64,000 bases of DNA, taken from the IMG/VR virus record IMGVR_UViG_3300044733_004754. One strand, given 5' to 3'. Each line of letters starts with the position of its first letter. Position 1 is the first letter of the stretch. A program made the position numbers and the translations under genes. The notes beneath the pieces were generated by a model. That model did not search any database and was not told the origin of the DNA. It saw only the letters and a list, made by a program, of their open reading frames with translations. The stretch is from a virus. Shown here in pieces: positions 1-19,371 of this stretch.

Positions 1-1128
1 ACTGGTAATACATCTCTCTCTAATAGTTTAATCGTAACTGGTAATACGACCTTATCAAATACACTGGCTGTAACTGGTAACGTCGTTCTATCGAACACAT
101 TAGCTGTAACTGGTAATGTGACGTTTTCTAATACGTTAGCGGTTACAGGTAATACCACTTTTTCAAACACTATTAATATTGCCGGTATCACAACCTTACG
201 TAGCGCTGCCAATGTAGTTGGAGCAGCTGCAGCCTTCAATGCATTGACGGGTGTTGCAAACACGACGGAGTTCATCACCACAACGGCAGCACATGGCTTT
301 AGTAATGGTGATCTGGTTCAGTACATTGTATCGACTGGTAATACAGCTGTAACAGGTCTTGCAAATGGAACAAGTTACTACGTGGTTGAGGCGAATTCAA
401 CTGCATTCAAGTTATCCTCGTCGTATGGTGGATCAGTCATAAATCTAACCGCCAGTGTTAGTGAAGTTGGACATACTCTTACACCCCAACGAATTGTTCT
501 ATCAACGAATGGTAATATTGATAGTTCGTTAGGATTAGCTAACGTTGGCTCTTTACGTGTATTAGGGACCGCTGTTGTAAACGGTGCAGTAACGCTAGCT
601 AGTACGTTAGGTGTTACTGGAGCAGCAACATTTTCAAACACAATATCCGTAACAGGTAATGCGACCCTGTCAAACACGCTTGCTGTTACTGGTGCAACGA
701 CACTATCAAATACACTTGTTGTTTCGGGTAACGCAACATTTGACACAGATTTGCTTTTCATTGATGCAGTAAACAACAGAATTGGATTCAAGAACACATC
801 ACCAAGCTCAACCGATCTAATAACTATATCAGGTAATACTGTACTTACTGGTTTAAGTGCAGCTATTCGTTTCCTATCGTCAAACGCAACACATAATGCG
901 TCTATTACAATAGCCGGTAACACAACAAATACACGTACGACGTTTACTACATACGAAGCGAACGCAACAGCAAGTGATGGTGGTTTTATTTTCCAGGCAG
1001 CAAACGGAACAACAACCACATCTGTTCTAGCTTTTAATCAAACTGAGCTAAAGTATAAAACTGGTAATGTTGCACATGCAGGAAATTTTGGGATTTACGA
1101 TGTAAGCGGTACGCGGCTAGGACCATGA
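1..1128 (+). CDS. Tail fibre-like virion protein, 5'-truncated by the window edge
   Basis: Frame +1 is open from base 1. It has 12-aa repeats (TGNxTLSNTLAV) and an HGFxNGDxVxY...GLxxGTxYYV...FKL module common in T4-like tail proteins. The C-terminus is FGIYDVSGTRLGP. Confidence 0.7.
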   Translation, partial: TGNTSLSNSLIVTGNTTLSNTLAVTGNVVLSNTLAVTGNVTFSNTLAVTGNTTFSNTINIAGITTLRSAANVVGAAAAFNALTGVANTTEFITTTAAHGFSNGDLVQYIVSTGNTAVTGLANGTSYYVVEANSTAFKLSSSYGGSVINLTASVSEVGHTLTPQRIVLSTNGNIDSSLGLANVGSLRVLGTAVVNGAVTLASTLGVTGAATFSNTISVTGNATLSNTLAVTGATTLSNTLVVSGNATFDTDLLFIDAVNNRIGFKNTSPSSTDLITISGNTVLTGLSAAIRFLSSNATHNASITIAGNTTNTRTTFTTYEANATASDGGFIFQAANGTTTTSVLAFNQTELKYKTGNVAHAGNFGIYDVSGTRLGP

Positions 1129-1129
1129 A

Positions 1130-4100
1130 ATGGCAAGACCACTTAGAGCAAGATATGTTACAGCAAGTACAAGTGACGGTGTTCAGGAGATGTCGGATAG
1201 CGACATCAATGACCTTGTTATTCCTAGGATAACCAACTTATTTTACGCTGCATCAAATACATCTGGCTACGGTAACAAACTCGAACTAAGAACTACACCA
1301 CCAACTTGGAATTATGTTACTGGTGGGACTGTTCTTGATGTGTTTCCAACAGCTTTACCGCCCATCGGGACACATCCAGTAACTTCTTCGTCAACAACAT
1401 ACACGTTGTACCAAAATCTTGACACTGCATTGACAACAAACTTTGATCTTATAACCAAACCTGTTAAAACAGAGGCAAGTGGTGGTGTTCAAAAGATTCA
1501 ACAGTTTTCAAACAATGAAATCAGAGATGATATTCATAGTAAAGTTATTGCTGAAATATCTGTTGGGGCACAAGGAGCTTACTGGCTTGGAACTTCACCA
1601 CCAGGAACAGGTACGTGGATTGTTGTATCCTCAATAAACGATACTTTTGTTAACTCGACAAGCAATAGCACGCAAACAACCACATATAATTTGTATCAGC
1701 GCTCTACGAATAGTGGGTATGGTACAAAGAGGCCTTTAAAAGGTACAGCGAACGCTCTTACAGAGATGTCCGATGCTGAAATTGACACAATGACAGCGGC
1801 TATACGTGATTGTATTGCGGCTGGTATTGGTAGATATCAAATATCGACTACATCACCAACGCCTGGTACTTGGGTAGCTCGTGGTTCTTTCACAGATACA
1901 CAGAATGGTATAGAGGATCAATCATATTCCGGTAGTTACTTGGGTACTTTTACAGGTGCGTTCAGTGGCATTTATAATCAAGCATTCACAGGAGCTTATC
2001 AGGGACAGTTTAATCGGGCATTTACAGGTAACTTTATTGATACTTCTAAATTTACTGGTGCATTTGCAGGTGTGTATCAGCAAAATTTTACAGGTATCTA
2101 TTCACGTATTTTTACTCGTGATACAAACACCTCGTTTACGGGTGTTTATCAGAACACATATACAGGTAATTACACAGGTTTATTTGCGGGTGCATACTCA
2201 CAGGTATTCTCCGGTGGATATTTGGGAAGTTATCAAGGCTCTACTTTTACTGGCGGCTTCAACCAGACTTTTGCTGGTACGTATGTGGGAACATTTACAG
2301 GACCATATTCAGGAAATTTCCAGGGCGTAACATATTCAGGCGGATTCAATCAAAATTTTACTGGCGTATATGTAGGGGCGTTTTCAAGACCATATGCTGG
2401 GAACTTCCAAGGTATAACATATTCGGGTGGATATAATCAGACTTTTGCCGGTACGTATGTGGGAACATTCACGGGACCATATTCTGGTTCTTATCAGGGT
2501 ACAATATATCCTGGTGGGTATAATCAGACGTTTGCTGGAACATACAATCAAACGTTTACAGCTCAATACTCAGGGGATTTCCAGGGCGTAACATATTCAG
2601 GCGGTTACAATCAGACTTTCATAGGTGTATACGCAGGATCATTTTCAAGACCATATGCTGGGAATTTTCAAGGTATAACATATTCAGGTAGCTACAATCA
2701 AACCTTTGCCGGTACGTATAATCAAAGTTTTACCGGTGGATTTGTAAATAATTATGCCGGGACCTACTCACAGGCGTTCAGTGCCACGTACGCTGGTGGA
2801 TATGTTGGGGACTTTTCAAGAGCATATACAGGTTCATATCAGAACACATATTCAGGGGCATATGCAAATACGTGGTCTCGAATATTTTCAAGAGCGTGGA
2901 CGGGATCCTATACTGCTGCATATACGGGCGATTATACTGGTGCATATACGAAGGCCTTTGCGCGACTTTTCACAGGAACATATACAGGCGCTTGGATTGG
3001 TAACTACACACGTGGCTTTGTAGGCCTATATGGTTCAACATTCTCAAGAGGCTTCTCCTCCTTTTTCGTGGCCGCGTACACTTCAACGTATGCAGGAACT
3101 TATACAGGTAACTACACACGAGCTTTCACACCATCGTTTCAAGGATCGTATGCACTTCCTTCTGTAGGCTCCTACGATGGGGATTACATAGCAGGTGGAT
3201 TTACTGGGCCTTTCAACATCACGTATTATACAGGTACATATCAGGGCACATATAACAGCTTTTTCACGGGTACGTATGAAGGTGCTTTCTCACGTATATT
3301 TGCCGGTAGTTATGCTGGTACATACCAAGACCCCTATACAATAACATCATTTACGGGGCCATTTGCTGGTACAGGTTATTTTACAGGATCGTACGTTGGC
3401 AATTACCAAGGTAATTTTGGCGCTAGTTATCAAACGACATTCCAGGGATTTTATTCGGGTTTATATACGCAGGCCTTTTTGAGAGCGTGGACGAACGTAT
3501 TTGTATCAAGCTGGACATCACTGTATGCTGGTACATACTCAAGAGCATTTACAGGTGAATATCTCCAAAACTACATTGGATCGTATGAAGGAACATTCAG
3601 TAGAGAGTTCTCAGCCCCATATCAGGGATCATATGAGAATAGTTGGTCAAGAATATTTACTGGTGATTGGACGGGGGGTTTTAGTACTAATTACACTGGT
3701 GGGTATGTTAATTTTTGGACAGGGTCTTACACGAGTACATATTCCAGGGTTTTTTCGGGAGCTTATACTGGTGTAATTACATACACGGGTGGGTTTGTTG
3801 GGTTATATGCAAATACGTGGGCAGGCAGTTACACAGGACAATTTACTGGTGGCTATACTAGGGCGTTCACGGGTGACTATACGGCTACTTGGTCAGGATC
3901 CTATACCGGTGCGTACTCACAAAACTTTACCGGTTCGTATACAGGGACCTTTACTGGTGGATATACGGCTACGTGGACCGGTACCTACTCAAGAGTATTC
4001 ACAGGACAGTTTACAGGCGGATATACCGCGGTATTTACTGGTGCTTATACATCAACCTGGACAGGTTCATATGTAGGTTCATACTCACAAAACTTTTCTG

Positions 4101-4678
4101 GTAACTATGTAGGAACATTTACGGGTGCGTATACATCCACTTGGACAGGTTCTTACACCGGATCGTATTCACAAAACTTTACTGGTATATACACAGGCAC
4201 GTTCACAGGGGCATACACGGCTACGTGGACGGGTGTATATTCTGGTGCGTATTCACGAAATTTTACAGGCGCATATACGGGTACATTCAGCGGCAACTAC
4301 ACAGCTACCTTTGCTGGGACGTACACGGGCGGTTATACACGAGCATTTTCTGGTACATACGCTGGTAACTACACGGGCGGGTTTATTGGTCAGTGGACAG
4401 GAGTATACAGCCGTATATTCACTGGTTTATATACCGGCGCGTTCACAGGCGTTTTTATTGGTAACTTTACAGGTAGTTATGTTGGGACATATTCACGTAT
4501 ATTTACGGGTGCATATACTGGTTTGTTCACTGGCTCATATTCTGGAGCATATACGGGTGCTTTCAGTGGTAACTATGCTAATAATTTTACACGATTATTT
4601 ACAGGGGCATACTCGGGTCTAACCGTCACCGGTACAACGACGACGACTACATATACATTATGGGTTAGAACAGCTTGA
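1130..4678 (+). CDS. Giant Gly/aromatic tetrapeptide-repeat protein A (putative hairpin filament, 1182 aa)
   Basis: Three N-terminal RPL...QEMSDxxI modules, then about 900 aa of [YFW]-x-G-x repeats, ending YTLWVRTA. Paralogous to the next gene. Confidence 0.8.
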   Translation: MARPLRARYVTASTSDGVQEMSDSDINDLVIPRITNLFYAASNTSGYGNKLELRTTPPTWNYVTGGTVLDVFPTALPPIGTHPVTSSSTTYTLYQNLDTALTTNFDLITKPVKTEASGGVQKIQQFSNNEIRDDIHSKVIAEISVGAQGAYWLGTSPPGTGTWIVVSSINDTFVNSTSNSTQTTTYNLYQRSTNSGYGTKRPLKGTANALTEMSDAEIDTMTAAIRDCIAAGIGRYQISTTSPTPGTWVARGSFTDTQNGIEDQSYSGSYLGTFTGAFSGIYNQAFTGAYQGQFNRAFTGNFIDTSKFTGAFAGVYQQNFTGIYSRIFTRDTNTSFTGVYQNTYTGNYTGLFAGAYSQVFSGGYLGSYQGSTFTGGFNQTFAGTYVGTFTGPYSGNFQGVTYSGGFNQNFTGVYVGAFSRPYAGNFQGITYSGGYNQTFAGTYVGTFTGPYSGSYQGTIYPGGYNQTFAGTYNQTFTAQYSGDFQGVTYSGGYNQTFIGVYAGSFSRPYAGNFQGITYSGSYNQTFAGTYNQSFTGGFVNNYAGTYSQAFSATYAGGYVGDFSRAYTGSYQNTYSGAYANTWSRIFSRAWTGSYTAAYTGDYTGAYTKAFARLFTGTYTGAWIGNYTRGFVGLYGSTFSRGFSSFFVAAYTSTYAGTYTGNYTRAFTPSFQGSYALPSVGSYDGDYIAGGFTGPFNITYYTGTYQGTYNSFFTGTYEGAFSRIFAGSYAGTYQDPYTITSFTGPFAGTGYFTGSYVGNYQGNFGASYQTTFQGFYSGLYTQAFLRAWTNVFVSSWTSLYAGTYSRAFTGEYLQNYIGSYEGTFSREFSAPYQGSYENSWSRIFTGDWTGGFSTNYTGGYVNFWTGSYTSTYSRVFSGAYTGVITYTGGFVGLYANTWAGSYTGQFTGGYTRAFTGDYTATWSGSYTGAYSQNFTGSYTGTFTGGYTATWTGTYSRVFTGQFTGGYTAVFTGAYTSTWTGSYVGSYSQNFSGNYVGTFTGAYTSTWTGSYTGSYSQNFTGIYTGTFTGAYTATWTGVYSGAYSRNFTGAYTGTFSGNYTATFAGTYTGGYTRAFSGTYAGNYTGGFIGQWTGVYSRIFTGLYTGAFTGVFIGNFTGSYVGTYSRIFTGAYTGLFTGSYSGAYTGAFSGNYANNFTRLFTGAYSGLTVTGTTTTTTYTLWVRTA
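2246..2680 (+). repeat. 5 x 87-bp (29-aa) tandem repeat, outgoing arm of protein A
   Basis: Units like YSGGFNQNFTGVYVGAFSRPYAGNFQGIT start at 2246, 2333, 2420, 2507 and 2594. Confidence 0.8.
3878..4297 (+). repeat. 5 x 84-bp (28-aa) tandem repeat, returning arm of protein A
   Basis: Units like YTSTWTGSYTGSYSQNFTGIYTGTFTGA start at 3878, 3962, 4046, 4130 and 4214. Confidence 0.8.
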
Positions 4679-4684
4679 GAAAAA

Positions 4685-7600
4685 ATGCCACTTCGTCCGT
4701 TATACTATAATACATCGTTATCCGGATTACAGGAGATGTCCAATACGGACATCGATGGATATATTTCAAATGTAATAGGTTCTGATTTTGCTTCGACAGA
4801 AGATATTGGATCTCTCATCGTGCAGGATCCAGGTGATCCGGTTCCTGCAAATTCTACCTCCATTGGTACATGGGTTGATACACGCTACGATCAACAAATA
4901 GGTGACCATCCTGTTTCAGAAGCGAATCTTGTTTATTCAAACACAACCATTTATCAAAGATTGGGTGGTGGACCATTAACGGACCCTTCAATGGTACGAC
5001 CTATTTGCTGGAATGATACGCTTGATGGCGTACAGCAAATGGCGAATACGGATATTGACACAACCATTATTGCGAAGGCCGTTTCTTATATTGTCAATGG
5101 TGGTGTCGGTTCATATGTCCTGCAGCCGTCTGCACCAGTAACTGGTACGTGGGTTGTGAGAGGGCGATTGCAGAATACTGAACGTCCATACTTTGCCAAT
5201 GAAACATTTCTCTGGCAAAAAACGTCTGAAAGTCCAAGCGGCTCTATAAAGCCTTTGAAATGGAGTACTAATGCTTTACGTGAGATGTCAAATAACGACA
5301 TCAAAACCTTGACACATAGAGCAAGAAATTACATCGCCAATACAGGTATAGGCACCTATCAATTATCCACAACCACCCCGTCATCAGGCGGAACGTGGGT
5401 TGAGGCGGGTACGGGATTCAATGATACCCGTCAAGAAATAAGACCTCAAACTTATAATGCTCAAGTGTATACAGCAACTTTTTCTGGTGTATATACACGG
5501 GCTTTTGTTGGCAAGTATCAAGGTAGTTTTACTGGTTTGTATGGGATACCATACACACGTGAATTCACAGGTACATTCGCAGATACGTTTACCGGGGCTT
5601 TCAATCAGCAATTCACCGGAGCTTTTTCTAGCGGATATGCAACAACGTACACGGGTACGTTTAATCAGCAGTTCACTGGACAATTCACTGGCGCTTATAC
5701 TGGTGGTTATACAGGAACATTTACCGGTGCTTACACGGGCGGATATACAGGTGCATTCACTGGTGTATATTCGGCGCCTTATGTGGGTAGCTTCACTGGT
5801 GTATATGTAGGGACGTTTAATCAGCAGTTTACTGGCGCGTTCAGTGGTGTTTATCTAGGGACATATCAACAAAATTTCACTGGTGATTATGTTGGTGGCT
5901 TTACAGGTGCATTCAGCGGTGCTTATGCTCAAGCATTTACGGGTGCATATAGTTCAATCTTTACAGCAGCATATAGCGGTTCGTTTACAGGCCAGTTTTC
6001 GGGTTTATACACAGGCGCTTTCACGGGTGTATATGTAGGAAGTTACGTGGGGAAATTCACAGGCGCATATACGGCTATCTATAGTAGATTGTTTACAGGG
6101 GACTACACAGGTATTTATACTGGTGCATATAGTCAGAACTTCACCGGTGCCTTTACTGGTCAATTCAATCAAGTGTTTACAGGTACGTTCGCTGGTGGTT
6201 ATGCAGGAACGTTTAACCAAGTATTTACGGGCACATTTGCAGGTACTTACAGTAGCCTGTTCTCTGCAATATACACAGGCAACTACACTGGTATATACAG
6301 CCAAGCGTTTACAGGTGCATTCACGGGTATTTTTAATCAGGCTTTCACAGGTAACTTTGTTGGTAATTATGTTGGTAACTATCAGCAAACATTTACGGGA
6401 GCTTTTGCAGGAACATACAGCAGTTTATTCACGGGAAGCTACACAGGTAACTACACAGGATTATATAACCAAGTATTTACAGGAACGTTTGCTGGAACAT
6501 ATAGCCAAGTATTTTCGGGTAGCTATACCGGTAATTACACGGGATTATATAACCAAGTTTTTACAGGTACTTTTGCGGGAACATATAGTAGATTATTCAC
6601 AGGAAGCTATACAGGCAATTACACAGGCATATACAATCAAATATTCACAGGTACCTTCGCAGGCACTTACAGTAGATTATTCACGGGAAGCTATACAGGT
6701 AATTACACTGGCATATACAATCAAGTATTTACAGGTGCGTTTGTAGGAAATTATGCCGGGTCGTTTACTGGTTCGTTTGCTGGTGGATACACAGGTGCTT
6801 TTTCCGGTTCATACACAGGCGCTTACACAGGAATTTATGCAGGTTCATATGTAGGAAATTACCAGGGAAACTTTACTGGTTCATTTGCAGGAACATATAG
6901 TAGATTATTTATAGGTTCGTATTCGGGTGGGTACACACGTGCATTCACAGGAGCTTACACAGGAATTTATTCGGGCGGGTACGTAGGCTCCTTCACGGGT
7001 TTGTACTCCGGTGGGTATGTAGGTTCTTTCACAGGTATTTACTCAGGCGGATACACGAGAGCTTTCTCGGGATCATACACTGGATCATATACTGGAACAT
7101 ACGCCGGAACGTACACAGGTTTGTATTCAGGTGGGTATGTCGGATCGTTTACGGGCATATACTCAGGCGGATACACGAGGGCTTTCTCGGGATCATACAC
7201 TGGATCATATACTGGAACATACGCCGGAACGTATACAGGCATATATGCTGGTGGATATGTGGGGTATTTTACGGGCATATACTCAGGCGGATACACGAGA
7301 GCTTTCTCGGGATCATACACTGGATCATATACTGGAACATACGTAGGAACGTATACAGGCATATATGCTGGTGGGTATGTGGGGTATTTTACTGGAATAT
7401 ACTCTGGTGGGTATACAAGAGCTTTCTCAGGATCATATACTGGATCATATACTGGAACATACGCCGGAACGTATACGGGTTTGTATTCAGGTGGTTATGT
7501 CGGATACTTTACAGGCATATATTCAGGTGGTTATGTTGGATACTTTACAGGAATATATGGTGGCACGTACAGTAGGTTATTCACAGGTGCCTACGCGGGT

Positions 7601-10600
7601 GGATATATTGGGTACTTCACAGGAATATATGGCGGTACGTATAGTAGATTATTCACAGGCGCCTACGCGGGTGGGTATGTTGGTTACTTTACAGGAATAT
7701 ATGGTGGTACATATAGTAGATTATTTACAGGTACATACTCTGGAAGTTATCAAGGCAATTTCACGGGGCTCTATTCAGGTACATATAGTAGATTATTTAC
7801 TGGCAGCTATACAGGATTATATTCCGGAAACTTTCAGGGTAACTTTACAGGTGCTTTTGCTGGTACGTATAGTCGATTGTTTACGGGTTTATATACAGGA
7901 TCATACTCTCGTGGGTTCACGCGGGTCTTCATCGGGACTTATCAAAGAGGGTTCATAGGGTCATATGCAGGTAGCTTCAATAATACATTCACACCAACAT
8001 TTGCTGGAGCTTACGCTCGGGCCTTTATTGGAGTTTATGCAGGATCGTACCAAAACCCATTCACTGGAATATATTTCACTGGTTATTACACTGGTTTTTA
8101 CATTAATTTTTTTACAGGAACTTATCAGGGAGCGTTCACGCGTTTGTTCACAGGGGCATATACAGGCGTTTATCAAGATCCTTACGTCATTTTAACTTTT
8201 ACGGGGCCATTTGCTGGTCCAGGTTTTTTCGCGGGTACCTATGGGGGTTCTTATGTAGGTGTGTTTGGCGCCTCATATAGTAGGCTATTTACAGGCTTTT
8301 ATTCAGGATCATATACTGGTGATTTTACGGGAGCGTTTGCTCGGGTGTTCACAGCAACATGGACAGGGTCCTATGCAGGATCTTATCAAGGCAACTTTAC
8401 AGGAAGTTTTGCGGGTACGTATAGTAGATTGTTTACTGGGCAGTATTCTGGCGCTTATGCAGGATCCTATCAGGGTAACTTCACAGGTACTTTTGCTGGT
8501 ACGTATAGTAGATTATTTACGGGTACGTACTCGGGCAACTACCAAGGCAACTTCTCCGGGATATATGCAGGATCATATGCACAGACGTTTACTGGAATAT
8601 ACTCCGGCAATTACCAAGGCAACTTTTCCGGAACATATGCGGGTGCATATGCACAGACTTTCACAGGAATATATTCCGGCAATTATCAAGGCAACTTCTC
8701 AGGAACATATGCAGGAGCATATGCACAAACATTTACAGGTGCATATGCAGGGGCATATGCTCAAACATTTACAGGTACTTACGCAGGCGGATATACAGGC
8801 TATTATTCTGGCGCCTATGCTGGTACATATTCGGGTGCATTCAATCAAACATTTACAGGTGCATATGCAGGGGCATATGCTCAAACATTTACAGGTACTT
8901 ACGCAGGCGGATATACAGGCTATTATTCTGGGGCATATGCTGGAACGTATTCGGGCTCATTTAACCAGACATTTACGGGTGCATTTGCAGGGGCATATGC
9001 TCAAACATTTACAGGTACTTACGCAGGCGGATATACAGGCTATTATTCTGGCGCTTATGCTGGTACATACTCAGGAGCATTTAACCAGACATTTACAGGT
9101 GCATTCGCCGGTGTATATCAACAAACCTTTACGGGTACGTATTCAGGTGGATATATTGGATACTATTCTGGCGCTTATGCTGGTACATACTCAGGAGCAT
9201 TTAACCAGACATTTACAGGTGCATTCGCTGGTGTATATCAACAAACATTTACCGGTTCTTACTCGGGTACATATCAGCAAACGTTTACAGGTGGGTATGC
9301 AGGGACATATTCAGGGTCTTATAATCAGACATTTACAGGCGCTTTTTTAGGTAGTTATGAAAGTTCTTTCACTGGATTTTATTCAGGTGCCTATAGTAGA
9401 TTATTCACTGGTAGCTACACAGGTGCGTATACTGGAATATATGTGGGTTCCTATGTTGGTACATTTAATCAAACATTTACGGGTAGTTTTGCAGGCACAT
9501 ATTCAAGAGTATTTTCGGGATTATATTCCGGTGGCTACACGGGTGCATTTACTGGAATATATGCCGGTGCTTATGTTGGCAACTTCCAAGGCAATTTCAC
9601 AGGTAACTACTCTGGTGGCTACACAGGTGCATTTACTGGAATATATGCTGGTGCTTATGTTGGCAACTTCCAAGGCAACTTCACAGGAAATTATTCAGGT
9701 GGATATACAGGAACATTTTCGGGAATATATGCTGGTAGTTATGTAGGAGGGTATCAGGGCAACTTCACAGGAAATTATTCAGGCGGATATACCGGCACAT
9801 TTACTGGTGTATATGCAGGCGCTTATGTTGGAAGCTATCAAGGGAATTTCACTGGAAGTTTTATTGGTGGCTACACACGTGTGTTCTCGGGCACATATTC
9901 CGGTGTATATACGGGTGTTTACACAGGTCAATTTACAGGGATATACTCAACGTTATTTACAGGTGCATTCAGTGGGATATACGCAGGCGGATATGGTGGG
10001 AGTTTTCTAGGAAACTTCTCAGGGCTGTATTCGGGCGGATACACAGGAGCGTTTACAGGTATTTACACAGGTATCTACACAGGTGGGTATACTGGCACCT
10101 TTACTGGAGCATACTCAACACAGTTTACAGGTACATTTACAGGTGGATATGCAGGCACGTATGCCGGTGCCTACCAAGGCAACTTCACAGGCGTGTTCCA
10201 AGGTACGTACCAACAATCATTTACAGGTAATTACACCGGCATATACAGCCAAGCATTTAGTGGTACATATAACCAAGCATTCACAAGAAACTTTACTTTT
10301 GATTATACCGGTACGTTTTCGGGACCATATGTAGGATTTTTCACTGGAAGTTATTCACAAGTCTTCAGTAGATTTTTTACAGGATCATATACGGGTCAGT
10401 TCACAGGCGCTTATTCGGGCATATACAGTCAAGCCTTTACAGGTGCGTTCTCTGGCAATTATACAGGTATCTACAGTCAAGCATTCACAGGTGCTTACAC
10501 GGGTATATTCAATCAAACATTCACTGGCGATTTCGTAGGAAAATTTAATCAAACCTTCAGCGGTATTTTCATTGGTTCCTATAATCAACAATTCACTGGT

Positions 10601-11113
10601 GCTTTTAGTGGTGGGTATACGGCGGTGTATACTGGCGCTTACAGTCAAGCCTTTACTGGTACATTCAGCGGCATTTATACTGGTCAGTTTTCTGGTGCGT
10701 ACACGGGAGCATTTGGTTCATTGTTTACAGGAGTATACAGCCGTATATTCACTGGATCTTATTCGAGCGCATTCACAGGCCAGTTTAACCAATCGCCTGT
10801 TTACACGAGCGTGTATTCAAGACCATATGCTGGCGTGTATGGTCAGACGTTTAGTAGTACGACATATCCAGGTGCGTTTTATGCACAAGCGTTTACAGGA
10901 GAGTACACAGGATCGTATACAGGAACCTCTATCTTTGGGTTCACAAGTAGTTTTTCTAAAGCATTTACTAGTTTGTTAGGTTCTTTTTCATCGTTATTTA
11001 CAGGACTATATACTAACATAACAGGGCAATATCTAGCAGCTTGGTCGGGGTTGACAATAATGTCAACGCCGGAAACAATTCAAACACTTAAACTTTGGGT
11101 ACGAACAGCATGA
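4685..11113 (+). CDS. Giant Gly/aromatic tetrapeptide-repeat protein B (putative hairpin filament, 2142 aa)
   Basis: Same architecture as protein A: three RPL...QEMSNxDI modules, about 1860 aa of [YF]-x-G-x repeats, the central YQDPY...FTGPFAG motif and a C-terminal LKLWVRTA. Confidence 0.8.
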   Translation: MPLRPLYYNTSLSGLQEMSNTDIDGYISNVIGSDFASTEDIGSLIVQDPGDPVPANSTSIGTWVDTRYDQQIGDHPVSEANLVYSNTTIYQRLGGGPLTDPSMVRPICWNDTLDGVQQMANTDIDTTIIAKAVSYIVNGGVGSYVLQPSAPVTGTWVVRGRLQNTERPYFANETFLWQKTSESPSGSIKPLKWSTNALREMSNNDIKTLTHRARNYIANTGIGTYQLSTTTPSSGGTWVEAGTGFNDTRQEIRPQTYNAQVYTATFSGVYTRAFVGKYQGSFTGLYGIPYTREFTGTFADTFTGAFNQQFTGAFSSGYATTYTGTFNQQFTGQFTGAYTGGYTGTFTGAYTGGYTGAFTGVYSAPYVGSFTGVYVGTFNQQFTGAFSGVYLGTYQQNFTGDYVGGFTGAFSGAYAQAFTGAYSSIFTAAYSGSFTGQFSGLYTGAFTGVYVGSYVGKFTGAYTAIYSRLFTGDYTGIYTGAYSQNFTGAFTGQFNQVFTGTFAGGYAGTFNQVFTGTFAGTYSSLFSAIYTGNYTGIYSQAFTGAFTGIFNQAFTGNFVGNYVGNYQQTFTGAFAGTYSSLFTGSYTGNYTGLYNQVFTGTFAGTYSQVFSGSYTGNYTGLYNQVFTGTFAGTYSRLFTGSYTGNYTGIYNQIFTGTFAGTYSRLFTGSYTGNYTGIYNQVFTGAFVGNYAGSFTGSFAGGYTGAFSGSYTGAYTGIYAGSYVGNYQGNFTGSFAGTYSRLFIGSYSGGYTRAFTGAYTGIYSGGYVGSFTGLYSGGYVGSFTGIYSGGYTRAFSGSYTGSYTGTYAGTYTGLYSGGYVGSFTGIYSGGYTRAFSGSYTGSYTGTYAGTYTGIYAGGYVGYFTGIYSGGYTRAFSGSYTGSYTGTYVGTYTGIYAGGYVGYFTGIYSGGYTRAFSGSYTGSYTGTYAGTYTGLYSGGYVGYFTGIYSGGYVGYFTGIYGGTYSRLFTGAYAGGYIGYFTGIYGGTYSRLFTGAYAGGYVGYFTGIYGGTYSRLFTGTYSGSYQGNFTGLYSGTYSRLFTGSYTGLYSGNFQGNFTGAFAGTYSRLFTGLYTGSYSRGFTRVFIGTYQRGFIGSYAGSFNNTFTPTFAGAYARAFIGVYAGSYQNPFTGIYFTGYYTGFYINFFTGTYQGAFTRLFTGAYTGVYQDPYVILTFTGPFAGPGFFAGTYGGSYVGVFGASYSRLFTGFYSGSYTGDFTGAFARVFTATWTGSYAGSYQGNFTGSFAGTYSRLFTGQYSGAYAGSYQGNFTGTFAGTYSRLFTGTYSGNYQGNFSGIYAGSYAQTFTGIYSGNYQGNFSGTYAGAYAQTFTGIYSGNYQGNFSGTYAGAYAQTFTGAYAGAYAQTFTGTYAGGYTGYYSGAYAGTYSGAFNQTFTGAYAGAYAQTFTGTYAGGYTGYYSGAYAGTYSGSFNQTFTGAFAGAYAQTFTGTYAGGYTGYYSGAYAGTYSGAFNQTFTGAFAGVYQQTFTGTYSGGYIGYYSGAYAGTYSGAFNQTFTGAFAGVYQQTFTGSYSGTYQQTFTGGYAGTYSGSYNQTFTGAFLGSYESSFTGFYSGAYSRLFTGSYTGAYTGIYVGSYVGTFNQTFTGSFAGTYSRVFSGLYSGGYTGAFTGIYAGAYVGNFQGNFTGNYSGGYTGAFTGIYAGAYVGNFQGNFTGNYSGGYTGTFSGIYAGSYVGGYQGNFTGNYSGGYTGTFTGVYAGAYVGSYQGNFTGSFIGGYTRVFSGTYSGVYTGVYTGQFTGIYSTLFTGAFSGIYAGGYGGSFLGNFSGLYSGGYTGAFTGIYTGIYTGGYTGTFTGAYSTQFTGTFTGGYAGTYAGAYQGNFTGVFQGTYQQSFTGNYTGIYSQAFSGTYNQAFTRNFTFDYTGTFSGPYVGFFTGSYSQVFSRFFTGSYTGQFTGAYSGIYSQAFTGAFSGNYTGIYSQAFTGAYTGIFNQTFTGDFVGKFNQTFSGIFIGSYNQQFTGAFSGGYTAVYTGAYSQAFTGTFSGIYTGQFSGAYTGAFGSLFTGVYSRIFTGSYSSAFTGQFNQSPVYTSVYSRPYAGVYGQTFSSTTYPGAFYAQAFTGEYTGSYTGTSIFGFTSSFSKAFTSLLGSFSSLFTGLYTNITGQYLAAWSGLTIMSTPETIQTLKLWVRTA
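6416..6751 (+). repeat. 4 x 84-bp (28-aa) tandem repeat, left arm of protein B
   Basis: YSRLFTGSYTGNYTGIYNQVFTGTFAGT-type units start at 6416, 6500, 6584 and 6668. Confidence 0.85.
7052..7531 (+). repeat. 4 x 120-bp (40-aa) tandem repeat, left arm of protein B
   Basis: Near-identical DNA recurs at 7081, 7201, 7321 and 7441 (tggatcatatactggaacatacg). Confidence 0.9.
7532..7747 (+). repeat. 3 x 72-bp (24-aa) tandem repeat, left arm of protein B
   Basis: YVGYFTGIYGGTYSRLFTGAYAGG units start at 7532, 7604 and 7676. Confidence 0.85.
8528..8743 (+). repeat. 3 x 72-bp (24-aa) tandem repeat, right arm of protein B
   Basis: YSGNYQGNFSGTYAGAYAQTFTGI units start at 8528, 8600 and 8672. Confidence 0.85.
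8744..9223 (+). repeat. 4 x 120-bp (40-aa) tandem repeat, right arm of protein B
   Basis: Near-identical DNA recurs at 8761, 8881 and 9001 (tcaaacatttacaggtacttacgcaggcgg), with a more diverged copy at 9121. Confidence 0.9.
9524..9859 (+). repeat. 4 x 84-bp (28-aa) tandem repeat, right arm of protein B
   Basis: YSGGYTGAFTGIYAGAYVGNFQGNFTGN units start at 9524, 9608, 9692 and 9776. Confidence 0.85.
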
Positions 11114-11553
11114 AACGAACTATTGTAAATCCGCATTGGGTAAACAATGCAAGAACAGTTATCTCTGCTGAATTTCATTATGATGACGGTAGGGTAGCGC
11201 AGGCAACGATTTCCGAGTCGGATGTTACTAATCCAGACCTTGTTGAAATTAAATCAAAATTTACGGACGAGCAACTTGAAGCTAACACGCGTAAAAAAAT
11301 TCAAGAGATCAATGCCGAGCGTGAGCGTAAGCATCAGGAAGAATTGGCTAAGGCTCAACGAAAACAACAAGAAGAATTGTTTGCAGCTAAGCTAAGAATT
11401 TTTGAGATCGACGCCATTAAAGAATCAGATAATCGAGTGCTCAAAGCAAAGATAAGAAAGTCAAAGAGTGATGTTGAGGCTATGGCGTGGGCCTCGGCTT
11501 TGTTGCTTGATATAGCCCAAAAGGAAATAGCAACAAATTCAACGGCGGAGTAA
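11110..11553 (+). CDS. Hypothetical protein, possible fibre assembly chaperone
   Basis: The ATG at 11110 overlaps the stop of protein B (ATGA coupling). It has a beta-like N-terminus and a charged helical C-terminal half. Confidence 0.55.
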   Translation: MKRTIVNPHWVNNARTVISAEFHYDDGRVAQATISESDVTNPDLVEIKSKFTDEQLEANTRKKIQEINAERERKHQEELAKAQRKQQEELFAAKLRIFEIDAIKESDNRVLKAKIRKSKSDVEAMAWASALLLDIAQKEIATNSTAE

Positions 11554-11555
11554 AA

Positions 11556-12290
11556 ATGAATATTCGTAATGGTTTTTTAATTGTTGCATCACAACTCAAA
11601 GAGTATCTAGATTCGGCAAATTATCTGGCGAGTAGTATAAAAGACTACTATCCCGAAGCACACATCACTCTTTTTGTAACTCCAAAGCTAGAGCAATATG
11701 CTGACCGCAGTGCCTTTGATCTAGTTATATCTGAGGATGTTCCGAACCATGTGCGTACAAAGTTGTACGCTCTCTCCAGAACACCATACACTGAGCTTAC
11801 TGTTTATGTTGATGCAGATATGGAGTGCATGCACTCTGATGTCTCGAATATTTGGGATGAAATGCCTGAGGATTGTGACCTCCTGATTACAAAAATACGT
11901 CCCTATAACGGTAAAGAGGATCGTTGGCCGGGAGGTGCGACGATACCTCAAGGCCGTATGATATATCATGGTGGTTTTTTTATGTACAGATCAAACCCAC
12001 AAACACTTGAGTTTATGCGTAGGTGGTGGGAGGATTATAAATTACAAAGAAGTGAACCATGGCCTTATCCTGAAGAAGAGTGTAGGAAGTCCTTTGCTCA
12101 ATGGGATCAATTTACTTTTTGGAAACTTTTAGCTGTTGACAAGCTAGATGTTAAGGTAGGTGTTTTTGATGATGATGCAAGATGGAATTTTGTAAATGGT
12201 TATTATCCAAAAGAAGCCAAAAAAGAGATCGTTTTTTGGCACCACACTATTCCTTCTAAGCACGAAAATATAGGGATCAAAGCTAAATGA
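11556..12290 (+). CDS. GT-A fold glycosyltransferase (GT8-like / nucleotide-diphospho-sugar transferase)
   Basis: YVDADM DxD motif, followed by HGGFF and WDQFTFW motifs typical of GT8/GT77-like enzymes. Confidence 0.7.
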   Translation: MNIRNGFLIVASQLKEYLDSANYLASSIKDYYPEAHITLFVTPKLEQYADRSAFDLVISEDVPNHVRTKLYALSRTPYTELTVYVDADMECMHSDVSNIWDEMPEDCDLLITKIRPYNGKEDRWPGGATIPQGRMIYHGGFFMYRSNPQTLEFMRRWWEDYKLQRSEPWPYPEEECRKSFAQWDQFTFWKLLAVDKLDVKVGVFDDDARWNFVNGYYPKEAKKEIVFWHHTIPSKHENIGIKAK

Positions 12291-12919
12291 AAGAAATTCA
12301 AATAAACAATAAAGAACTTAAACAAATTTTAAATGATTGGTTAGAGGTTCTTTTGAGAGCAGATCGTTCGAAATATCCCTATCAAGCAGGCGTGGGTAAA
12401 ACTGGATTAGTGACTCCAGAGTATGCATGTAGTATGGAATACTTGCAACACATGCAAAGTAAAAAAGTAGACGGATTCCCAGAAACAACACATGGTGTTG
12501 ATCTAATGAGGTTTCGACCACCACACCAATCCCTTGCCGACGCTTTGGTAAAGCTAGACTACGATCTACTCAATTGGTCTGGATCGCGCAACAATGCGGT
12601 TAAGATGCTCTATCCTAAAGGCGGGTATATGGGCTGGCATCATAATGCAAACGCGCCCGGTTATAACATTCTTTTATCATGGTCTGAAAAAGGTACAGGT
12701 TTCTTTCGTTACCAAGATCCAATAACAAAAGAGATTGTCACGATGCAGGACACGCCTGGGTGGACGTGTAAAGTTGGATATTATGGACCATGGCATGAGC
12801 CGGATCGAATCTACTGGCACTGCGCAAGCGCACATGAAGAAGAGCGGGTAACGCTAGGGTATATCATTCCTCATGAAGGGATGTGGAATAATATGTGCGA
12901 TGATATTCAGTCAGCGTAA
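12287..12919 (+). CDS. Cupin / 2OG-Fe(II) oxygenase-like protein
   Basis: YPKGGYMGWHHN...YWHCA...RVTLGY fits a double-stranded beta-helix metal-binding pattern. Confidence 0.55.
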   Translation: MKEIQINNKELKQILNDWLEVLLRADRSKYPYQAGVGKTGLVTPEYACSMEYLQHMQSKKVDGFPETTHGVDLMRFRPPHQSLADALVKLDYDLLNWSGSRNNAVKMLYPKGGYMGWHHNANAPGYNILLSWSEKGTGFFRYQDPITKEIVTMQDTPGWTCKVGYYGPWHEPDRIYWHCASAHEEERVTLGYIIPHEGMWNNMCDDIQSA

Positions 12920-13647
12920 TATTTTCTAAAGAAGTGTTCGTAGTGTTTGGGTAGGGTTGGACCGTTAAAAAGTATCACAGGTATTTTTTTAACGGTCTCA
13001 ACAAACTTACTTTCTCTATATGCTTTTTGGACTGGGTCGTACAACGCATTCTCTTCAATGTCTACGCCGTAAAGAAAAGAATAAAATTTTCTTGTTGGAA
13101 AATATCCAATATTCACGTTGATATTTTCTTTCTCATAAAACAAAAAAGAGTCCATACCCCATCTATATTTGTTCATAAATGATTCAGGATCTCTAGATAC
13201 AAACTCCCAAATTTTTTGTGGTTTGTTTTCTTGCCACGTCATGCAACTACTGTTAAACGGATGGTGAAATATTGGGAAACCATAGTCCCATTTTGGTCTC
13301 CACTCTGCTTCAATTAGTGTTAGCTCATTATGATTAAAAGCAGTGATGTCGTTAATGTCGTGTTTAATGACAACATCGAGATCAAAAAAAATACGATCAC
13401 CAGTTGGTAGTTGATCGTTTACTTGCTCACTGAACAGAAACATCTTATTGTAGACGACGATATCAAACTCGTTTTCAACATATTCAATGATATTGATACC
13501 ATGTGAAATCCCTTCGGGATTGTCCGTGTAGCAGAACATCTTGAATGGTCTTGCTATGTTCTTGCGGCACATCCTAAATAAGTTATTGACCATAGAGCTA
13601 GGGTATTTCGTACCAACTTTAACACATAAAATAGTGAGCATTTCCAT
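12907..13647 (-). CDS. Glycosyltransferase (GT-A fold)
   Basis: CVKVGTKY N-terminus, FCYTD, FFDLDVVI (DxD) and NSSCMTW motifs. Confidence 0.7.
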   Translation of the reverse strand: MEMLTILCVKVGTKYPSSMVNNLFRMCRKNIARPFKMFCYTDNPEGISHGINIIEYVENEFDIVVYNKMFLFSEQVNDQLPTGDRIFFDLDVVIKHDINDITAFNHNELTLIEAEWRPKWDYGFPIFHHPFNSSCMTWQENKPQKIWEFVSRDPESFMNKYRWGMDSFLFYEKENINVNIGYFPTRKFYSFLYGVDIEENALYDPVQKAYRESKFVETVKKIPVILFNGPTLPKHYEHFFRKYYAD

Positions 13648-14248
13648 GGATATTCAATATCTAACAAAAATTTCAGATGTTTTAAGGAAGGGTGTGTCTA
13701 CAGGGTTAAATGTGTTTGATTTCGCTAATTCATTCAGTCAAACACAACTCGAATCAAAAAAATGGTTGGTTGAAGAATTAAGTAAAGTTTCATTCAAGAA
13801 ACAACCCACCATACTTATATTGGGTGGATGGTACGGAAGCTATCTTGTTCCACTGCTACGGCAGCATGTAAAACCTGATCACATATATTTCAATGATATC
13901 GACAGATCGTGTTTAGACGTTGCAAAAGAGTTACATACCAGATACAAAGAAGATAGAAGTATAAGTTTCCACCATTTTGATGCTACAGCAATGTTTCATC
14001 ATTTTGATGCTGATATCGTTATAAACACTTCATGTGAGCACATGGAGCAGTACGAGGAGATGTTGAAGGAGGGCCAAGATACGTTATTCGTACTGCAGTC
14101 GTGTGATGAGGAAAGTGACCCGGGTCACGTAAACGTTTCCAAATCAACACAAGATTTTTTACACAAAGTTGGGTTAACGCGCGTATACATGCAGTCGAGA
14201 AAGAACCTTGGACACAAAAACAGGTTTTTGATCATAGGTAAACAATAG
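13646..14248 (+). CDS. Class I SAM-dependent methyltransferase
   Basis: ILILGGWYG motif I, FNDID and DIVINTSCEH. Start moved to the ATG at 13646. Confidence 0.7.
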   Translation: MDIQYLTKISDVLRKGVSTGLNVFDFANSFSQTQLESKKWLVEELSKVSFKKQPTILILGGWYGSYLVPLLRQHVKPDHIYFNDIDRSCLDVAKELHTRYKEDRSISFHHFDATAMFHHFDADIVINTSCEHMEQYEEMLKEGQDTLFVLQSCDEESDPGHVNVSKSTQDFLHKVGLTRVYMQSRKNLGHKNRFLIIGKQ

Positions 14249-14291: not shown

Positions 14292-14618
14292 ATGGCCATA
14301 AAAGCAAATTTGATAATTGATCAAGGGACAGATTATCAAACAGATATAACACTTACGGACCTTGATGATAATGTTGTTAACTTGTCCGGGTATACAGCTA
14401 ATGCCCAGATAAGAAAGTCATACACTTCGTCAAACGCTGTCAGTTTTTCTGTAACGCTTGGTGAAAATACTGGTATTGTGACGTTATCGTTAACCGATAC
14501 ACAAACAGCCAATATCACACCTGGAAGGTATTTGTATGATGTTCTCTTAACATCAAACAATATAACATCGAGAATTGTAGAAGGTATAGTTACCGTAACG
14601 CCAGGAGTAACGAGATGA
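14292..14618 (+). CDS. Small Ig-like virion structural protein
   Basis: NLIIDQGTD...LSGYTANAQIRKSY...GRYLYDV...RIVEG, a beta-sandwich family common in T4-like phages. Confidence 0.65.
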   Translation: MAIKANLIIDQGTDYQTDITLTDLDDNVVNLSGYTANAQIRKSYTSSNAVSFSVTLGENTGIVTLSLTDTQTANITPGRYLYDVLLTSNNITSRIVEGIVTVTPGVTR

Positions 14619-18624: not shown

Positions 18625-19371
18625 ATGGCAACAAACTTCTTCTTCAATAATTTTACAAGTAGCCAGGAACAAACGTTACTTGAAGATTTAATTATTGAAT
18701 CGATAAAGATTCACGGTGTTGATGTAATTTATCTACCTCGTAGCACAGGTACTGTTGATGCTGTTTTCAATGAAGATATAACACGTAGTTATGTTGCTGC
18801 TGTACCTATTGAGATGTATGTGAAGAATGTTGAGGGATTTGCAGGGGATGGTGACTTTCTCTCTAAGTTTAATTTAGAAATACGTGATCAGATAACGTTC
18901 ACGGTTGCATTTCGCACATTCGCCAATGAAGTAATTGCTGCGGATACGACGACAGGGGATGCTACGAGAGACAGGCCGTTGGAAGGCGATCTGATTTATT
19001 TTCCATTCAATAAAAAAATATTTGAGATACGTTTTGTTGAACATGAATCAGTGTTCTACCAATTGGGTTCTTTACAGATGTATGATCTCAAGTGCGAGTT
19101 ATTCGAATACAACAACGAGTACTTTGGTACGGGTGTACCAGATGTTGATCGCTTAATGTATAACTACTCTCTTGGTTCGGAACTGTATGGAATCAAAACA
19201 GAGAATAGCTATCTCATCACAACAGAGGATGGGTATCCGTTACTACAAGAGGAATTCGACAGTAACGATCATGAAAACGATCCCTTATCCCAGAACGAGG
19301 AAATTGAAACAGTGGCTGATGGTATCATTGACTTTACAGAACGCGATCCTTTTAGTGAGGGTACGTACTAA
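18625..19371 (+). CDS. gp14: Neck protein gp14
   Basis: LIIESIKIHG, RPLEGDLIYFP, FYQLG and DFTERDPF motifs. Confidence 0.92.
   Translation: MATNFFFNNFTSSQEQTLLEDLIIESIKIHGVDVIYLPRSTGTVDAVFNEDITRSYVAAVPIEMYVKNVEGFAGDGDFLSKFNLEIRDQITFTVAFRTFANEVIAADTTTGDATRDRPLEGDLIYFPFNKKIFEIRFVEHESVFYQLGSLQMYDLKCELFEYNNEYFGTGVPDVDRLMYNYSLGSELYGIKTENSYLITTEDGYPLLQEEFDSNDHENDPLSQNEEIETVADGIIDFTERDPFSEGTY

What the first reader, a model, noticed from the sequence alone, without database searches (positions are those of the whole stretch)
1130..4678. Paralog A shows the same symmetry, with 29-aa units facing 28-aa units
Seen: five 29-aa units (2246-2680; Pro- and NQ-containing) mirror five 28-aa units (3878-4297; Trp-containing). 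The axis is near nt 3275, leaving about 450 residues of repeat on each side. It falls in YNSFFTGTYEGAFSRIF, homologous to the axis of protein B (YINFFTGTYQGAFTRLF). Inference: this independently supports the hairpin model. The extra residue per unit could be a periodic bulge that adds a kink or twist. The two paralogs would form filaments differing about two-fold in length.
Basis: partly seen in the sequence, partly recalled or inferred. Interest (0 to 1): 0.85.

Follow-up and report, generated by a model that had tools for sequence, protein, structure and literature searches.

The report
Giant fold-back fibre protein of a phage
A 1182-residue tail-region protein of a T4-like phage almost certainly runs out and back on itself as a very long two-armed hairpin made of a four-residue repeat. 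This fibre design is not described in any structure or paper I could find, and its length appears to grow by matched duplications in both arms.

Summary
Observation confirmed. Protein A (1130-4678) has five 29-aa units at 2246-2680 and five 28-aa units at 3878-4297. They lie 107 and 105 residues from the two ends of an 896-aa [Y/F/W]-[T/S]-G-x tract.

An objective scan puts the mirror axis at aa 717-719, inside YNSFFTGTYEGAFSRIF. That residue aligns to aa 1149 of paralog B, where B's own mirror axis falls.

The out-and-back reading has four independent supports:
- The tract interrupts the third of three homologous base modules, and the C-terminal TYTLWVRTA is that module's missing last strand.
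- AlphaFold2 models the base and two long flanking strands with pLDDT 86-96.
- Relatives range from about 15-aa loops to about 3000-aa tracts. Some carry a lectin-like domain at mid-sequence.
- In eight of nine family members tested (A and B included), repeat blocks in the two arms are equidistant from the base within 5 residues.

Neither AlphaFold2 nor ESMFold2 modelled the arms, so the periodic bulge and the 150 versus 310 nm lengths remain inference.

The base resembles the beta-prism of perforin-2 (P2)/MABP, which bears a short hairpin. No Pfam, PHROG or PDB sequence match exists.

This scan had already noted short (about 24 nm) versions in two other genomes. A and B are giant versions.

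The parts
1130..4678 (+). Gene for protein A (1182 aa): three-module base, 896-aa tetrad-repeat tract, C-terminal closing strand
   Evidence: family of 193 representative clusters
1130..1429 (+). Base module 1 (aa 1-100): PLRARY strand, GVQEMSDSDINDLV helix, ends in TYTLYQ strand
   Evidence: pLDDT about 79-94
1442..1708 (+). Base module 2 (aa 105-193): complete copy, GTWIVVSSINDTF, a 9-aa loop, then TTTYNLYQRS
   Evidence: strands E163-174 and E181-191
1724..1924 (+). Base module 3, first part (aa 199-265): RPLK, LTEMSDAEIDTM helix, GTWVARGSFTDT strand. Its last strand is missing here
1925..3148 (+). Outgoing (N) arm, aa 266-673, [Y/F]-[T/S]-G-x tetrads
2246..2680 (+). Five 29-aa units (seven steps, one of them five residues long)
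3149..3454 (+). Irregular conserved centre (aa 674-775) shared with protein B; candidate turn or tip
   Evidence: 52% identity, E 5e-44; phase breaks
3251..3301 (+). Axis motif YNSFFTGTYEGAFSRIF (aa 708-724); mirror axis at aa 717-719
3455..4612 (+). Returning (C) arm, aa 776-1161
3878..4297 (+). Five 28-aa units, one Trp each
4613..4675 (+). Closing segment SGLTVTG-TTTTTTYTLWVRTA (aa 1162-1182): the last strand of base module 3
   Evidence: E1153-1180, pLDDT 86-96; conserved in 121 of 141 relatives
4685..11113 (+). Paralog B (2142 aa), same architecture, 1859-aa tract with blocks of 28/40/24 | 24/40/28 aa
11095..12919 (+). Three small genes (152, 244 and 210 aa) that travel with the fibre genes; the 244-aa product is weakly glycosyltransferase-like

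Best explanation
Protein A is a virion fibre of a T4-like myovirus, encoded in the host-recognition region between the baseplate genes and the neck genes.

Its first 265 residues plus its last roughly 20 residues form one compact base. The base is built from three homologous alpha/beta modules and resembles a beta-prism with pseudo-threefold symmetry. In modules 1 and 2 the last two strands are joined by a short loop. In module 3 that loop is replaced by 896 residues of a four-residue repeat: aromatic, Thr/Ser, Gly, variable.

Because the tract leaves and re-enters the same small domain, the chain must go out about 450 residues, turn in the conserved irregular centre (axis at aa 717-719), and come back about 445 residues. 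The two arms pair with each other along the way. That pairing explains why super-repeat blocks of equal length lie at equal distances from the base in the two arms. The fibre is lengthened by a duplication in one arm matched by an equal duplication in the other, much as a stem is lengthened in RNA.

Most likely the arms form a two-stranded antiparallel beta-ribbon. Aromatic and Gly residues would alternate on one face and Thr/Ser/small residues on the other. Fully extended, that gives about 150 nm for A and about 310 nm for B. The mid-sequence centre would be the distal, host-touching tip.

Shown here: the repeat anatomy, the mirror placement, the split module, the confident base model, and the family-wide pattern.

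Inferred: beta-ribbon geometry, monomeric state, physical lengths, the one-residue bulge per 29-aa unit, and the adhesion function.
For: 1. Split module. GTWIVVSSINDTF-(9 aa)-TTTYNLYQRS in module 2 corresponds to GTWVARGSFTDT-(about 900 aa)-TTTYTLWVRTA in module 3.

2. AlphaFold2 on A. Residues 1-265 mostly have pLDDT 79-95 and residues 1155-1182 have 86-96. Two 27-28-residue strands, E248-274 and E1153-1180, flank the tract. The 393-aa relative P0087 gives the same result, E247-271 and E368-391.

3. Mirror axis. It lies at 717-719 in A and 1148.5-1149.5 in B, and these are the same position in their 52%-identical centres.

4. B's paired blocks agree in period, copy number and nucleotide divergence: 84 nt x4.1 at 80% against 84 nt x4.3 at 79%; 120 nt x4.4 at 87% against x4.4 at 89%; 72 nt x2.9 at 87% against x2.9 at 85%. 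They occur in mirror order.

5. Family-wide test. In nine proteins with blocks in both arms (periods 12, 12, 13, 16, 20-22, 27/26, 29/28, 30, and 24/28/40), the block axis lies -1.2 to +5 residues from the midpoint between the base Trp and the C-terminal Trp/Tyr in eight of them. B is off by 39 of 950.

6. Graded series. The tract runs from about 15 aa (P0137, 287 aa) through YTGSYTGSYIRYYSG-VN-YGTYTGTYTGYYTG (P0113) and about 110 aa with a central NRGGSTNP turn (P0087) to about 3000 aa (phage C48C1).

7. Some relatives carry a globular domain at mid-sequence. Residues 719-810 of P0006 match a Pfam-detected Laminin_G_3 domain (36% identity, E 8e-12), and its arms are 206 and 224 aa. P0028 has arms of 298 and 299 aa.

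8. Base fold. The best structural matches are beta-prisms: Mp2Ba1 Z 7.1, MABP Z 6.6, perforin-2 P2 Z 5.8. P2 has pseudo-threefold symmetry and a 45 A hairpin that binds membranes (PMC6989145).

9. Genomic context. The gene lies upstream of a neck protein gene, terminase, sheath, portal and major capsid genes. The same gene order is found in C48C1 and contig L002. In related phages this region is the host recognition cluster (PMC7029224).
Against: No tool produced a usable model of the arms. pLDDT is 25-40 over aa 274-1154 in A and 22-35 in the short relative, so the beta-ribbon, the register and the bulge are not shown.

The low confidence is also what a disordered tract would give.

Phase breaks in A's two arms are not themselves mirror-placed.

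Crude arm-length measures across all relatives correlate only weakly (Spearman 0.15-0.49). Much of that is segmentation noise.

The structural matches of the base have Z below 8, which the tool calls middling.

There is no evidence on oligomeric state, virion location or expression.
Confidence: 0.72

Rival explanations
1. The chain still goes out and back, but the paired arms are not an extended thin ribbon. They coil or stack into a thicker, shorter body such as a two-start beta-solenoid, or several hairpins bundle with their aromatic faces inward. Real lengths would then be well below 150 and 310 nm.
For: A single ribbon would expose one aromatic residue in four. Phage fibres are usually oligomeric (general knowledge). 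The structure predictors fail on a single chain, as might be expected if partners are needed.
Against: Super-repeat periods vary within one protein (24, 28 and 40 aa in B; 12 to 30 aa across relatives). This argues against a fixed coil size. The base has three modules in one chain, which suggests a monomeric hub.
Confidence: 0.18
2. Domain-swapped antiparallel dimer. The chain stays extended, and its C-terminal strand completes module 3 of a second chain running the opposite way. The result is a rod with a base at each end. This imposes the same mirror constraint on the sequence.
For: Mirror symmetry alone cannot tell intra-chain from inter-chain antiparallel pairing.
Against: The shortest relatives have tracts of 15-40 aa with Gly/Pro/Asn turns, and these can only be simple hairpin loops. 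Relatives place lectin-like or other globular domains at mid-sequence, which makes sense at a tip but not in the middle of a rod. AlphaFold2 closes module 3 within one chain with high confidence.
Confidence: 0.05
3. The tract is a flexible, largely disordered Tyr/Gly/Ser/Thr-rich loop anchored at both ends. It would act as a sticky tether or brush rather than a paired structure.
For: Low-complexity composition with almost no charged residues. pLDDT of 22-40 in two AlphaFold2 runs. It is true in any case that the tract's ends are anchored in the base.
Against: A disordered loop has no need for a strict four-residue period over 900-1860 residues. It also has no need for blocks matched in period, copy number and divergence and placed equidistant from the base in eight of nine proteins.
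Confidence: 0.05

Closest known systems
P2 domain of perforin-2/MPEG1 and other MABP-type beta-prisms (PDB 6sb1, 3tow, 8b6v, 2qp2; PMC6989145)
   Same: Three-fold pseudo-symmetric beta-rich domain in which one repeat sends out an elongated two-stranded beta-hairpin whose tip contacts the target. These were the best structural matches to the modelled base (Z 5.8-7.1, 115-121 residues aligned).
   Different: The P2 hairpin is 26 residues and 45 A long. Here the insert is 896-1859 residues (about 3000 in C48C1) and is built from a strict four-residue repeat. There is no sequence similarity (6-12% identity), and each base module here also has an alpha-helix. Z below 8 is not proof of common descent.
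Short Tyr-Gly self-pairing hairpin proteins noted earlier in this scan (e1-5660687, e1-5643733; uncultured marine T4-like phages)
   Same: Same idea and apparently the same family: a Tyr-Gly repeat whose halves stay matched in length, a beta-prism-like base, and accompanying small genes. Relatives of that size (287-420 aa) were retrieved here with A's base domain.
   Different: Those tracts are about 150 residues (about 24 nm). A and B are 6 and 12 times longer, and they carry internal super-repeats that display the pairing directly. Those notes are AI reports, not publications.
Canonical phage long tail fibres (T4 gp34-gp37 and relatives; PMC3004832, PMC9603124)
   Same: Genomic position in the tail-fibre or host-recognition region, extreme length, a repetitive shaft, and a likely adhesive distal tip.
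   Different: Known fibres are parallel homotrimers (triple beta-helix, beta-spiral, coiled coil) with the receptor-binding tip at the C-terminus. Here both termini sit in the base and the tip is at mid-sequence. There is no Pfam, PHROG or PDB sequence match.
Hypothetical protein WJE88074.1 of Phage C48C1 (OQ984149, Kyanoviridae)
   Same: The only match among 50,697 phage records (29.5% identity over 92% of A, E 7e-66). It has the same termini (ends TYTLYVRVA), tetrad tract and neighbouring genes.
   Different: It is 3347 aa long, annotated only as hypothetical, and no publication was found in the library.

Membership tests
Fold-back Tyr-Gly fibre family (unnamed; base domain plus inserted tetrad tract) | Three homologous base modules, each with a PL[RK] strand, an [EQ]M[ST]D..[IL] helix, a G.Y strand, a GTW strand and a TYTL[WY] strand | tested here: met
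   Motif positions in A and B. The base domain retrieves 193 representative clusters at E<=1e-3 and 114 at E<=1e-10. AlphaFold2 gives three alpha/beta modules, mostly pLDDT 79-95.
Fold-back Tyr-Gly fibre family (unnamed; base domain plus inserted tetrad tract) | Tract inserted between the last two strands of module 3, with a conserved C-terminal L[WY].R.A closing strand | tested here: met
   The C-terminal motif is present in 121 of 141 relatives.
Fold-back Tyr-Gly fibre family (unnamed; base domain plus inserted tetrad tract) | Two arms matched in length, with features mirror-placed about the midpoint | tested here: met
   In A, the block axis is at 717-719 against an anchor midpoint of 713. 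Eight of nine family members agree within 5 residues.
MABP / perforin-2 P2-type beta-prism | Beta-prism with pseudo-threefold symmetry | tested here: inconclusive
   Three sequence repeats are present. Best structural matches have Z 7.1, 6.6, 6.4 and 5.8, rmsd 3.8-5.4 A over 115-121 residues. Z below 8 may reflect only a common arrangement.
MABP / perforin-2 P2-type beta-prism | Sequence membership (Pfam or PDB profile match) | tested here: not met
   No Pfam family at E<=0.1 and no PDB sequence match at E<=1.
Trimeric phage tail fibre families (T4 gp34/36/37, gp12, T5 pb1, gp38 adhesin) | Match to fibre or adhesin profiles, and a C-terminal receptor-binding or chaperone domain | tested here: not met
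   No Pfam or PHROG hits for A or B. The C-terminus is a conserved base strand, not a tip. Oligomeric state is not testable here.
Known short-period beta-solenoid or fibrous repeats (pentapeptide, hexapeptide, collagen G-x-y) | Period of 5, 6 or 3 residues | tested here: not met
   The period is 4: 201 of 247 aromatic gaps in A and 435 of 505 in B. Gly occupies tetrad position 3 in 61-77% of tetrads. No A or B hit to these Pfam families.

The most novel reading that the evidence does not exclude
A and B are single-chain, two-stranded beta-ribbon threads about 150 and 310 nm long that grow out of one loop of a small beta-prism. This would be a previously undescribed class of protein fibre. Its length would be set by compensatory, paired duplications in the two arms (the protein counterpart of lengthening an RNA stem), its tip would be a swappable mid-sequence module, and one-residue bulges (29 versus 28, 27 versus 26) would tune its twist.
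Probability: 0.4. Interest if true: 0.9.

Novelty: categorically new. Interest (0 to 1): 0.8.

Why it matters
Phage fibres decide which cells a phage can catch. All structurally known ones are parallel trimers with the binding tip at the C-terminus.

A fibre made by one chain folding back on itself, with the tip in the middle of the gene and both ends in the anchor, would be a new construction principle. The four-residue repeat matches no Pfam or PHROG family and no solved structure's sequence.

It would explain a set of very large unannotated genes in aquatic T4-like phages: 193 representative clusters, with products from about 290 to more than 3300 residues.

It would give an unusually clear example of compensatory evolution within a protein, where both arms must expand together.

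It would also offer a simple, length-programmable beta-ribbon scaffold for protein design.

The claim is directly testable by imaging, cross-linking and paired-deletion experiments.

Tried and rejected
**Structure prediction of the arms**
- AlphaFold2 on full-length A with a 40-sequence alignment gave no usable model of the arms (pLDDT 25-40).
- The 393-aa relative P0087 with 26 sequences gave the same result (pLDDT 22-35).
- Complex prediction of the 29-aa block against the 28-aa block gave score 0.00 and no verdict. This is neither for nor against pairing.

**Fold and family searches**
- Foldseek of the whole A model against the PDB found nothing at E<=0.001.
- Foldseek of the P0087 model against viral predicted structures also found nothing at E<=0.001.
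- Pfam and PHROG on A and B gave no families.
- phmmer of A and of P0006 against PDB sequences found nothing.
- Pfam on the central domains of six relatives found nothing significant. The lectin-like nature of P0006's centre rests only on a pairwise match to a neighbouring Laminin_G_3 domain.
- The ESM Atlas feature search gave only unnamed viral clusters at score 0.87.

**Phage record and genome searches**
- Megablast of 19 kb of the window against phage records found no match.
- tblastn of A's base domain against phage records found no match.
- No whole genome is held for this window.

**Crude family-wide arm measurements**
- Taking the largest non-repeat gap as the tip gave Spearman 0.15-0.30.
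- The first continuous run from each end was noisy.
- The largest aromatic gap gave Spearman 0.49. It fell in the central fifth of the tract in 34 of 88 proteins, against 17.6 expected.
- I replaced these measures with the block-axis test.

**Ideas tested and dropped**
- Pattern of unit subtypes in A's blocks (a-b-a-a-b against x-y-x-x-y): it is itself nearly palindromic, so it cannot tell parallel from antiparallel pairing.
- Mirror placement of phase breaks in A: not seen.
- Direct half-gene duplication: rejected, because the offsets are 107 versus 199 and B's blocks are in mirror order, not direct order.
- Inverted DNA duplication: rejected, because the reverse complement would not encode the repeat.

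**Literature**
- Searches found no description of such a fibre.
- The tentaclin paper is unrelated.
Full report
**What the window is**

The window comes from a T4-like myovirus. It encodes:
- large terminase (20546-22219)
- tail sheath (22299-24413)
- portal (25040-26662)
- scaffold and major capsid protein (29808-31163; about 70% identical to Stenotrophomonas phage DLP6 and 66% to Sinorhizobium phiM12)
- a T4-type neck protein (18625-19371)
- DNA polymerase (56953-59649)

No phage record is close at the DNA level.

Protein A (1130-4678, 1182 aa) and protein B (4685-11113, 2142 aa) lie upstream of the neck gene. In related aquatic myoviruses this region is called the host recognition cluster and holds fibres and glycosyltransferases (PMC7029224).

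**The observation**

From aa 266 to 1161, A has an aromatic residue at every fourth position: 201 of 247 aromatic gaps equal 4. The tetrad consensus is Y/F/W, then T/S/A, then G (61-64%, otherwise Q/R), then a variable small residue. The tract has almost no charged residues.

Each unit is seven steps, one of which has five residues (FQG[VI]T). Likewise nt 3878-4297 give five 28-aa units with one Trp each. Unit identities are 50-86%. Tandem Repeats Finder and a lag scan agree.

The first block begins 107 residues after the tract starts. The second ends 105 residues before the tract ends. An axis scan on the local-period profile peaks at aa 716-719.5, inside YNSFFTGTYEGAFSRIF.

The centres of A and B align at 52% identity over 143 residues (E 5e-44). 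In that alignment A718 corresponds to B1149. B's own axis was found independently from its 28/40/24 | 24/40/28 blocks, and it is 1148.5-1149.5.

**Why the chain must go out and back**

An earlier first-reader note (e1-5789745) suggested that the tract is an insertion in a base domain. I tested this.

The first 265 residues contain three copies of one module. Each copy has a PL[RK] strand, an EMSD..I helix, a G.Y strand and a GTW strand, followed by a loop and a TYTLYQ strand. Module 2 reads GTWIVVSSINDTF, nine loop residues, then TTTYNLYQRS. Module 3 reads GTWVARGSFTDT, then the whole 896-residue tract, then TTTYTLWVRTA at the C-terminus.

AlphaFold2 with 40 relatives models residues 1-265 mostly at pLDDT 79-95 and residues 1155-1182 at 86-96. 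Two 27-28-residue strands, 248-274 and 1153-1180, leave and re-enter the base. A 393-aa relative gives the same picture.

The modelled base best matches beta-prisms: Mp2Ba1 (Z 7.1), MABP (Z 6.6), a MACPF protein (Z 6.4) and perforin-2 P2 (Z 5.8). These scores are middling. [quoted passage not shown]

**Evidence that the two arms pair**

In B, the paired blocks agree in period, copy number and nucleotide divergence:

| N-arm block | C-arm block |
|---|---|
| 84 nt x4.1, 80% | 84 nt x4.3, 79% |
| 120 nt x4.4, 87% | 120 nt x4.4, 89% |
| 72 nt x2.9, 87% | 72 nt x2.9, 85% |

This points to expansions of both arms at about the same time. The N-arm and C-arm units have different sequences, so they are separate expansions and not copies of each other.

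Across the family, I took every protein that showed super-repeats in both arms. I compared the block mirror axis with the midpoint between the base Trp and the C-terminal Trp/Tyr:

| Protein | Offset of block axis from anchor midpoint (residues) |
|---|---|
| A | +5 |
| P0049 | +1 |
| P0093 | +3.2 |
| P0005 | +2 |
| P0179 | +2 |
| P0011 | about 0, after correcting a mis-picked anchor |
| P0066 | +0.8 |
| P0067 | -1.2 |
| B | -39 of 950 |

The arms are 171-465 residues long, and the periods differ, so the expansions are independent events. Under a crude null of uniform block placement (at most 0.1 per protein for a hit within 5 residues), eight of nine has a probability of order 1e-7. That figure is my own arithmetic and ignores relatedness between the proteins.

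P0049 repeats A's asymmetry: 27-aa units face 26-aa units.

**The family**

A's base domain retrieves 193 representative clusters (E<=1e-3) among 1.84 billion representative proteins. Their lengths run from under 300 to 1490 aa. The conserved C-terminal strand is present in 121 of 141 examined.

The tract length is graded:
- about 15 residues in P0137 (287 aa)
- YTGSYTGSYIRYYSG-VN-YGTYTGTYTGYYTG in P0113
- about 110 residues with a central NRGGSTNP turn in P0087
- about 135 residues in P0089
- 896 residues in A and 1859 in B
- about 3000 residues in the only phage-database relative, a 3347-aa hypothetical protein of phage C48C1

Other relatives carry a globular domain at mid-sequence. P0006 and P0007 have arms of 206 and 224 residues, and P0006 residues 719-810 match a Pfam-detected Laminin_G_3 domain of the neighbouring gene (36% identity, E 8e-12). 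P0028 has arms of 298 and 299. P0049 has a centre made of three roughly 90-aa repeats.

A tip module in the middle of the gene, flanked by equal arms, is what a fold-back fibre predicts.

**What is not shown**

Neither AlphaFold2 nor ESMFold2 gave a confident structure for the arms. The beta-ribbon geometry, the register and the oligomeric state are therefore inferred.

If the base register implied by the AlphaFold2 strand limits is i + j = 1427, aromatic residues face aromatic residues (Y266/Y1161, Y270/F1157, F274/F1153) and Gly faces Gly. With 1428 they would not. I could not read coordinates to decide between the two.

The periodic-bulge idea is plausible. Each N-arm unit has one five-residue step. 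Each C-arm unit has one Gly-less YT[AS]T tetrad followed by Trp. By position sums of 1433-1438, these lie roughly opposite each other. This remains an inference.

Lengths of about 150 and 310 nm assume about 0.33-0.35 nm per residue pair, as in the P2 hairpin.

**Rivals**
- A coiled or bundled hairpin, shorter and thicker than an extended ribbon.
- A domain-swapped antiparallel dimer, which satisfies the same symmetry but fits poorly with the 15-40-residue forms and with mid-sequence tip domains.
- A disordered tether, which does not explain the strict period or the matched blocks.

**Comparison with what is known**

There is no Pfam, PHROG or PDB sequence match, and the literature searches found no description.

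Known phage fibres are parallel trimers with C-terminal tips. The nearest structural idea is the short hairpin of perforin-2 P2.

Two follow-up notes in this scan (e1-5660687, e1-5643733) describe short versions of about 24 nm in other genomes and reached the same beta-prism comparison. I reached that comparison independently. I also confirmed their remark that three small genes accompany the fibre gene. A and B are giant members whose internal super-repeats make the pairing visible within a single sequence.

**Verdict**

The hairpin inference is well supported. The bulge and the length classes remain open. The finding is of high interest.

Noticed in passing
window 11095-12919 (+), and 14292-14618 (+): Three small genes (152, 244 and 210 aa) directly after B, plus a 108-aa LtfC-like gene, are conserved in the same order after the fibre genes of contig L002 (57-74% identity) and phage C48C1 (31-37%). 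The 244-aa product is weakly like a nucleotide-diphospho-sugar transferase, and a methyltransferase-like gene follows at 13541-14248. They may be chaperones or modifying enzymes for the fibres.
   Followed up: partly
P0026, P0032, P0039, P0052, P0054 and similar (about 1800 aa): The same tetrad repeat occurs as an internal two-armed insert in proteins with a weak baseplate-wedge N-terminus (PF23786). Arm lengths are, for example, 244/258 and 244/248 aa around a short break. The fold-back module therefore appears to be portable between carrier proteins.
   Followed up: partly
P0029, P0031, P0035: These proteins begin directly with tetrad repeats and end in a region weakly like the gp38 tail-fibre adhesin (PF05268, E 6e-5, below the family cut-off).
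   Followed up: no
L002:14096-19297 (+), 1733 aa: The B-like neighbour of P0006 keeps the base modules and the KLWVRTA ending, but its tetrad tract is only about 200 aa. It carries three Laminin_G_3 domains and other inserts at the N-terminus and in the loops of the other base modules. All three module loops therefore seem to accept insertions.
   Followed up: partly
P0049 (816 aa): 27-aa units in the outgoing arm face 26-aa units in the returning arm. This is a second case where the N-arm unit is one residue longer. The centre is made of three roughly 90-aa repeats, possibly another three-fold tip domain.
   Followed up: partly
window 4685-11113 (protein B): B's block axis (aa 1149) lies 39 residues before the midpoint of its anchors. 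The returning arm has about 80 extra, irregular residues near the C-terminus (about aa 2020-2117) with no counterpart in the outgoing arm.
   Followed up: no
window 1-1128 (+), 5'-open ORF: The partial upstream protein has a weak bactofilin-like (beta-helical) N-terminal match (E 1.8e-5, below cut-off) and matches PHROG structural-protein families. It is probably another fibre or baseplate component.
   Followed up: no
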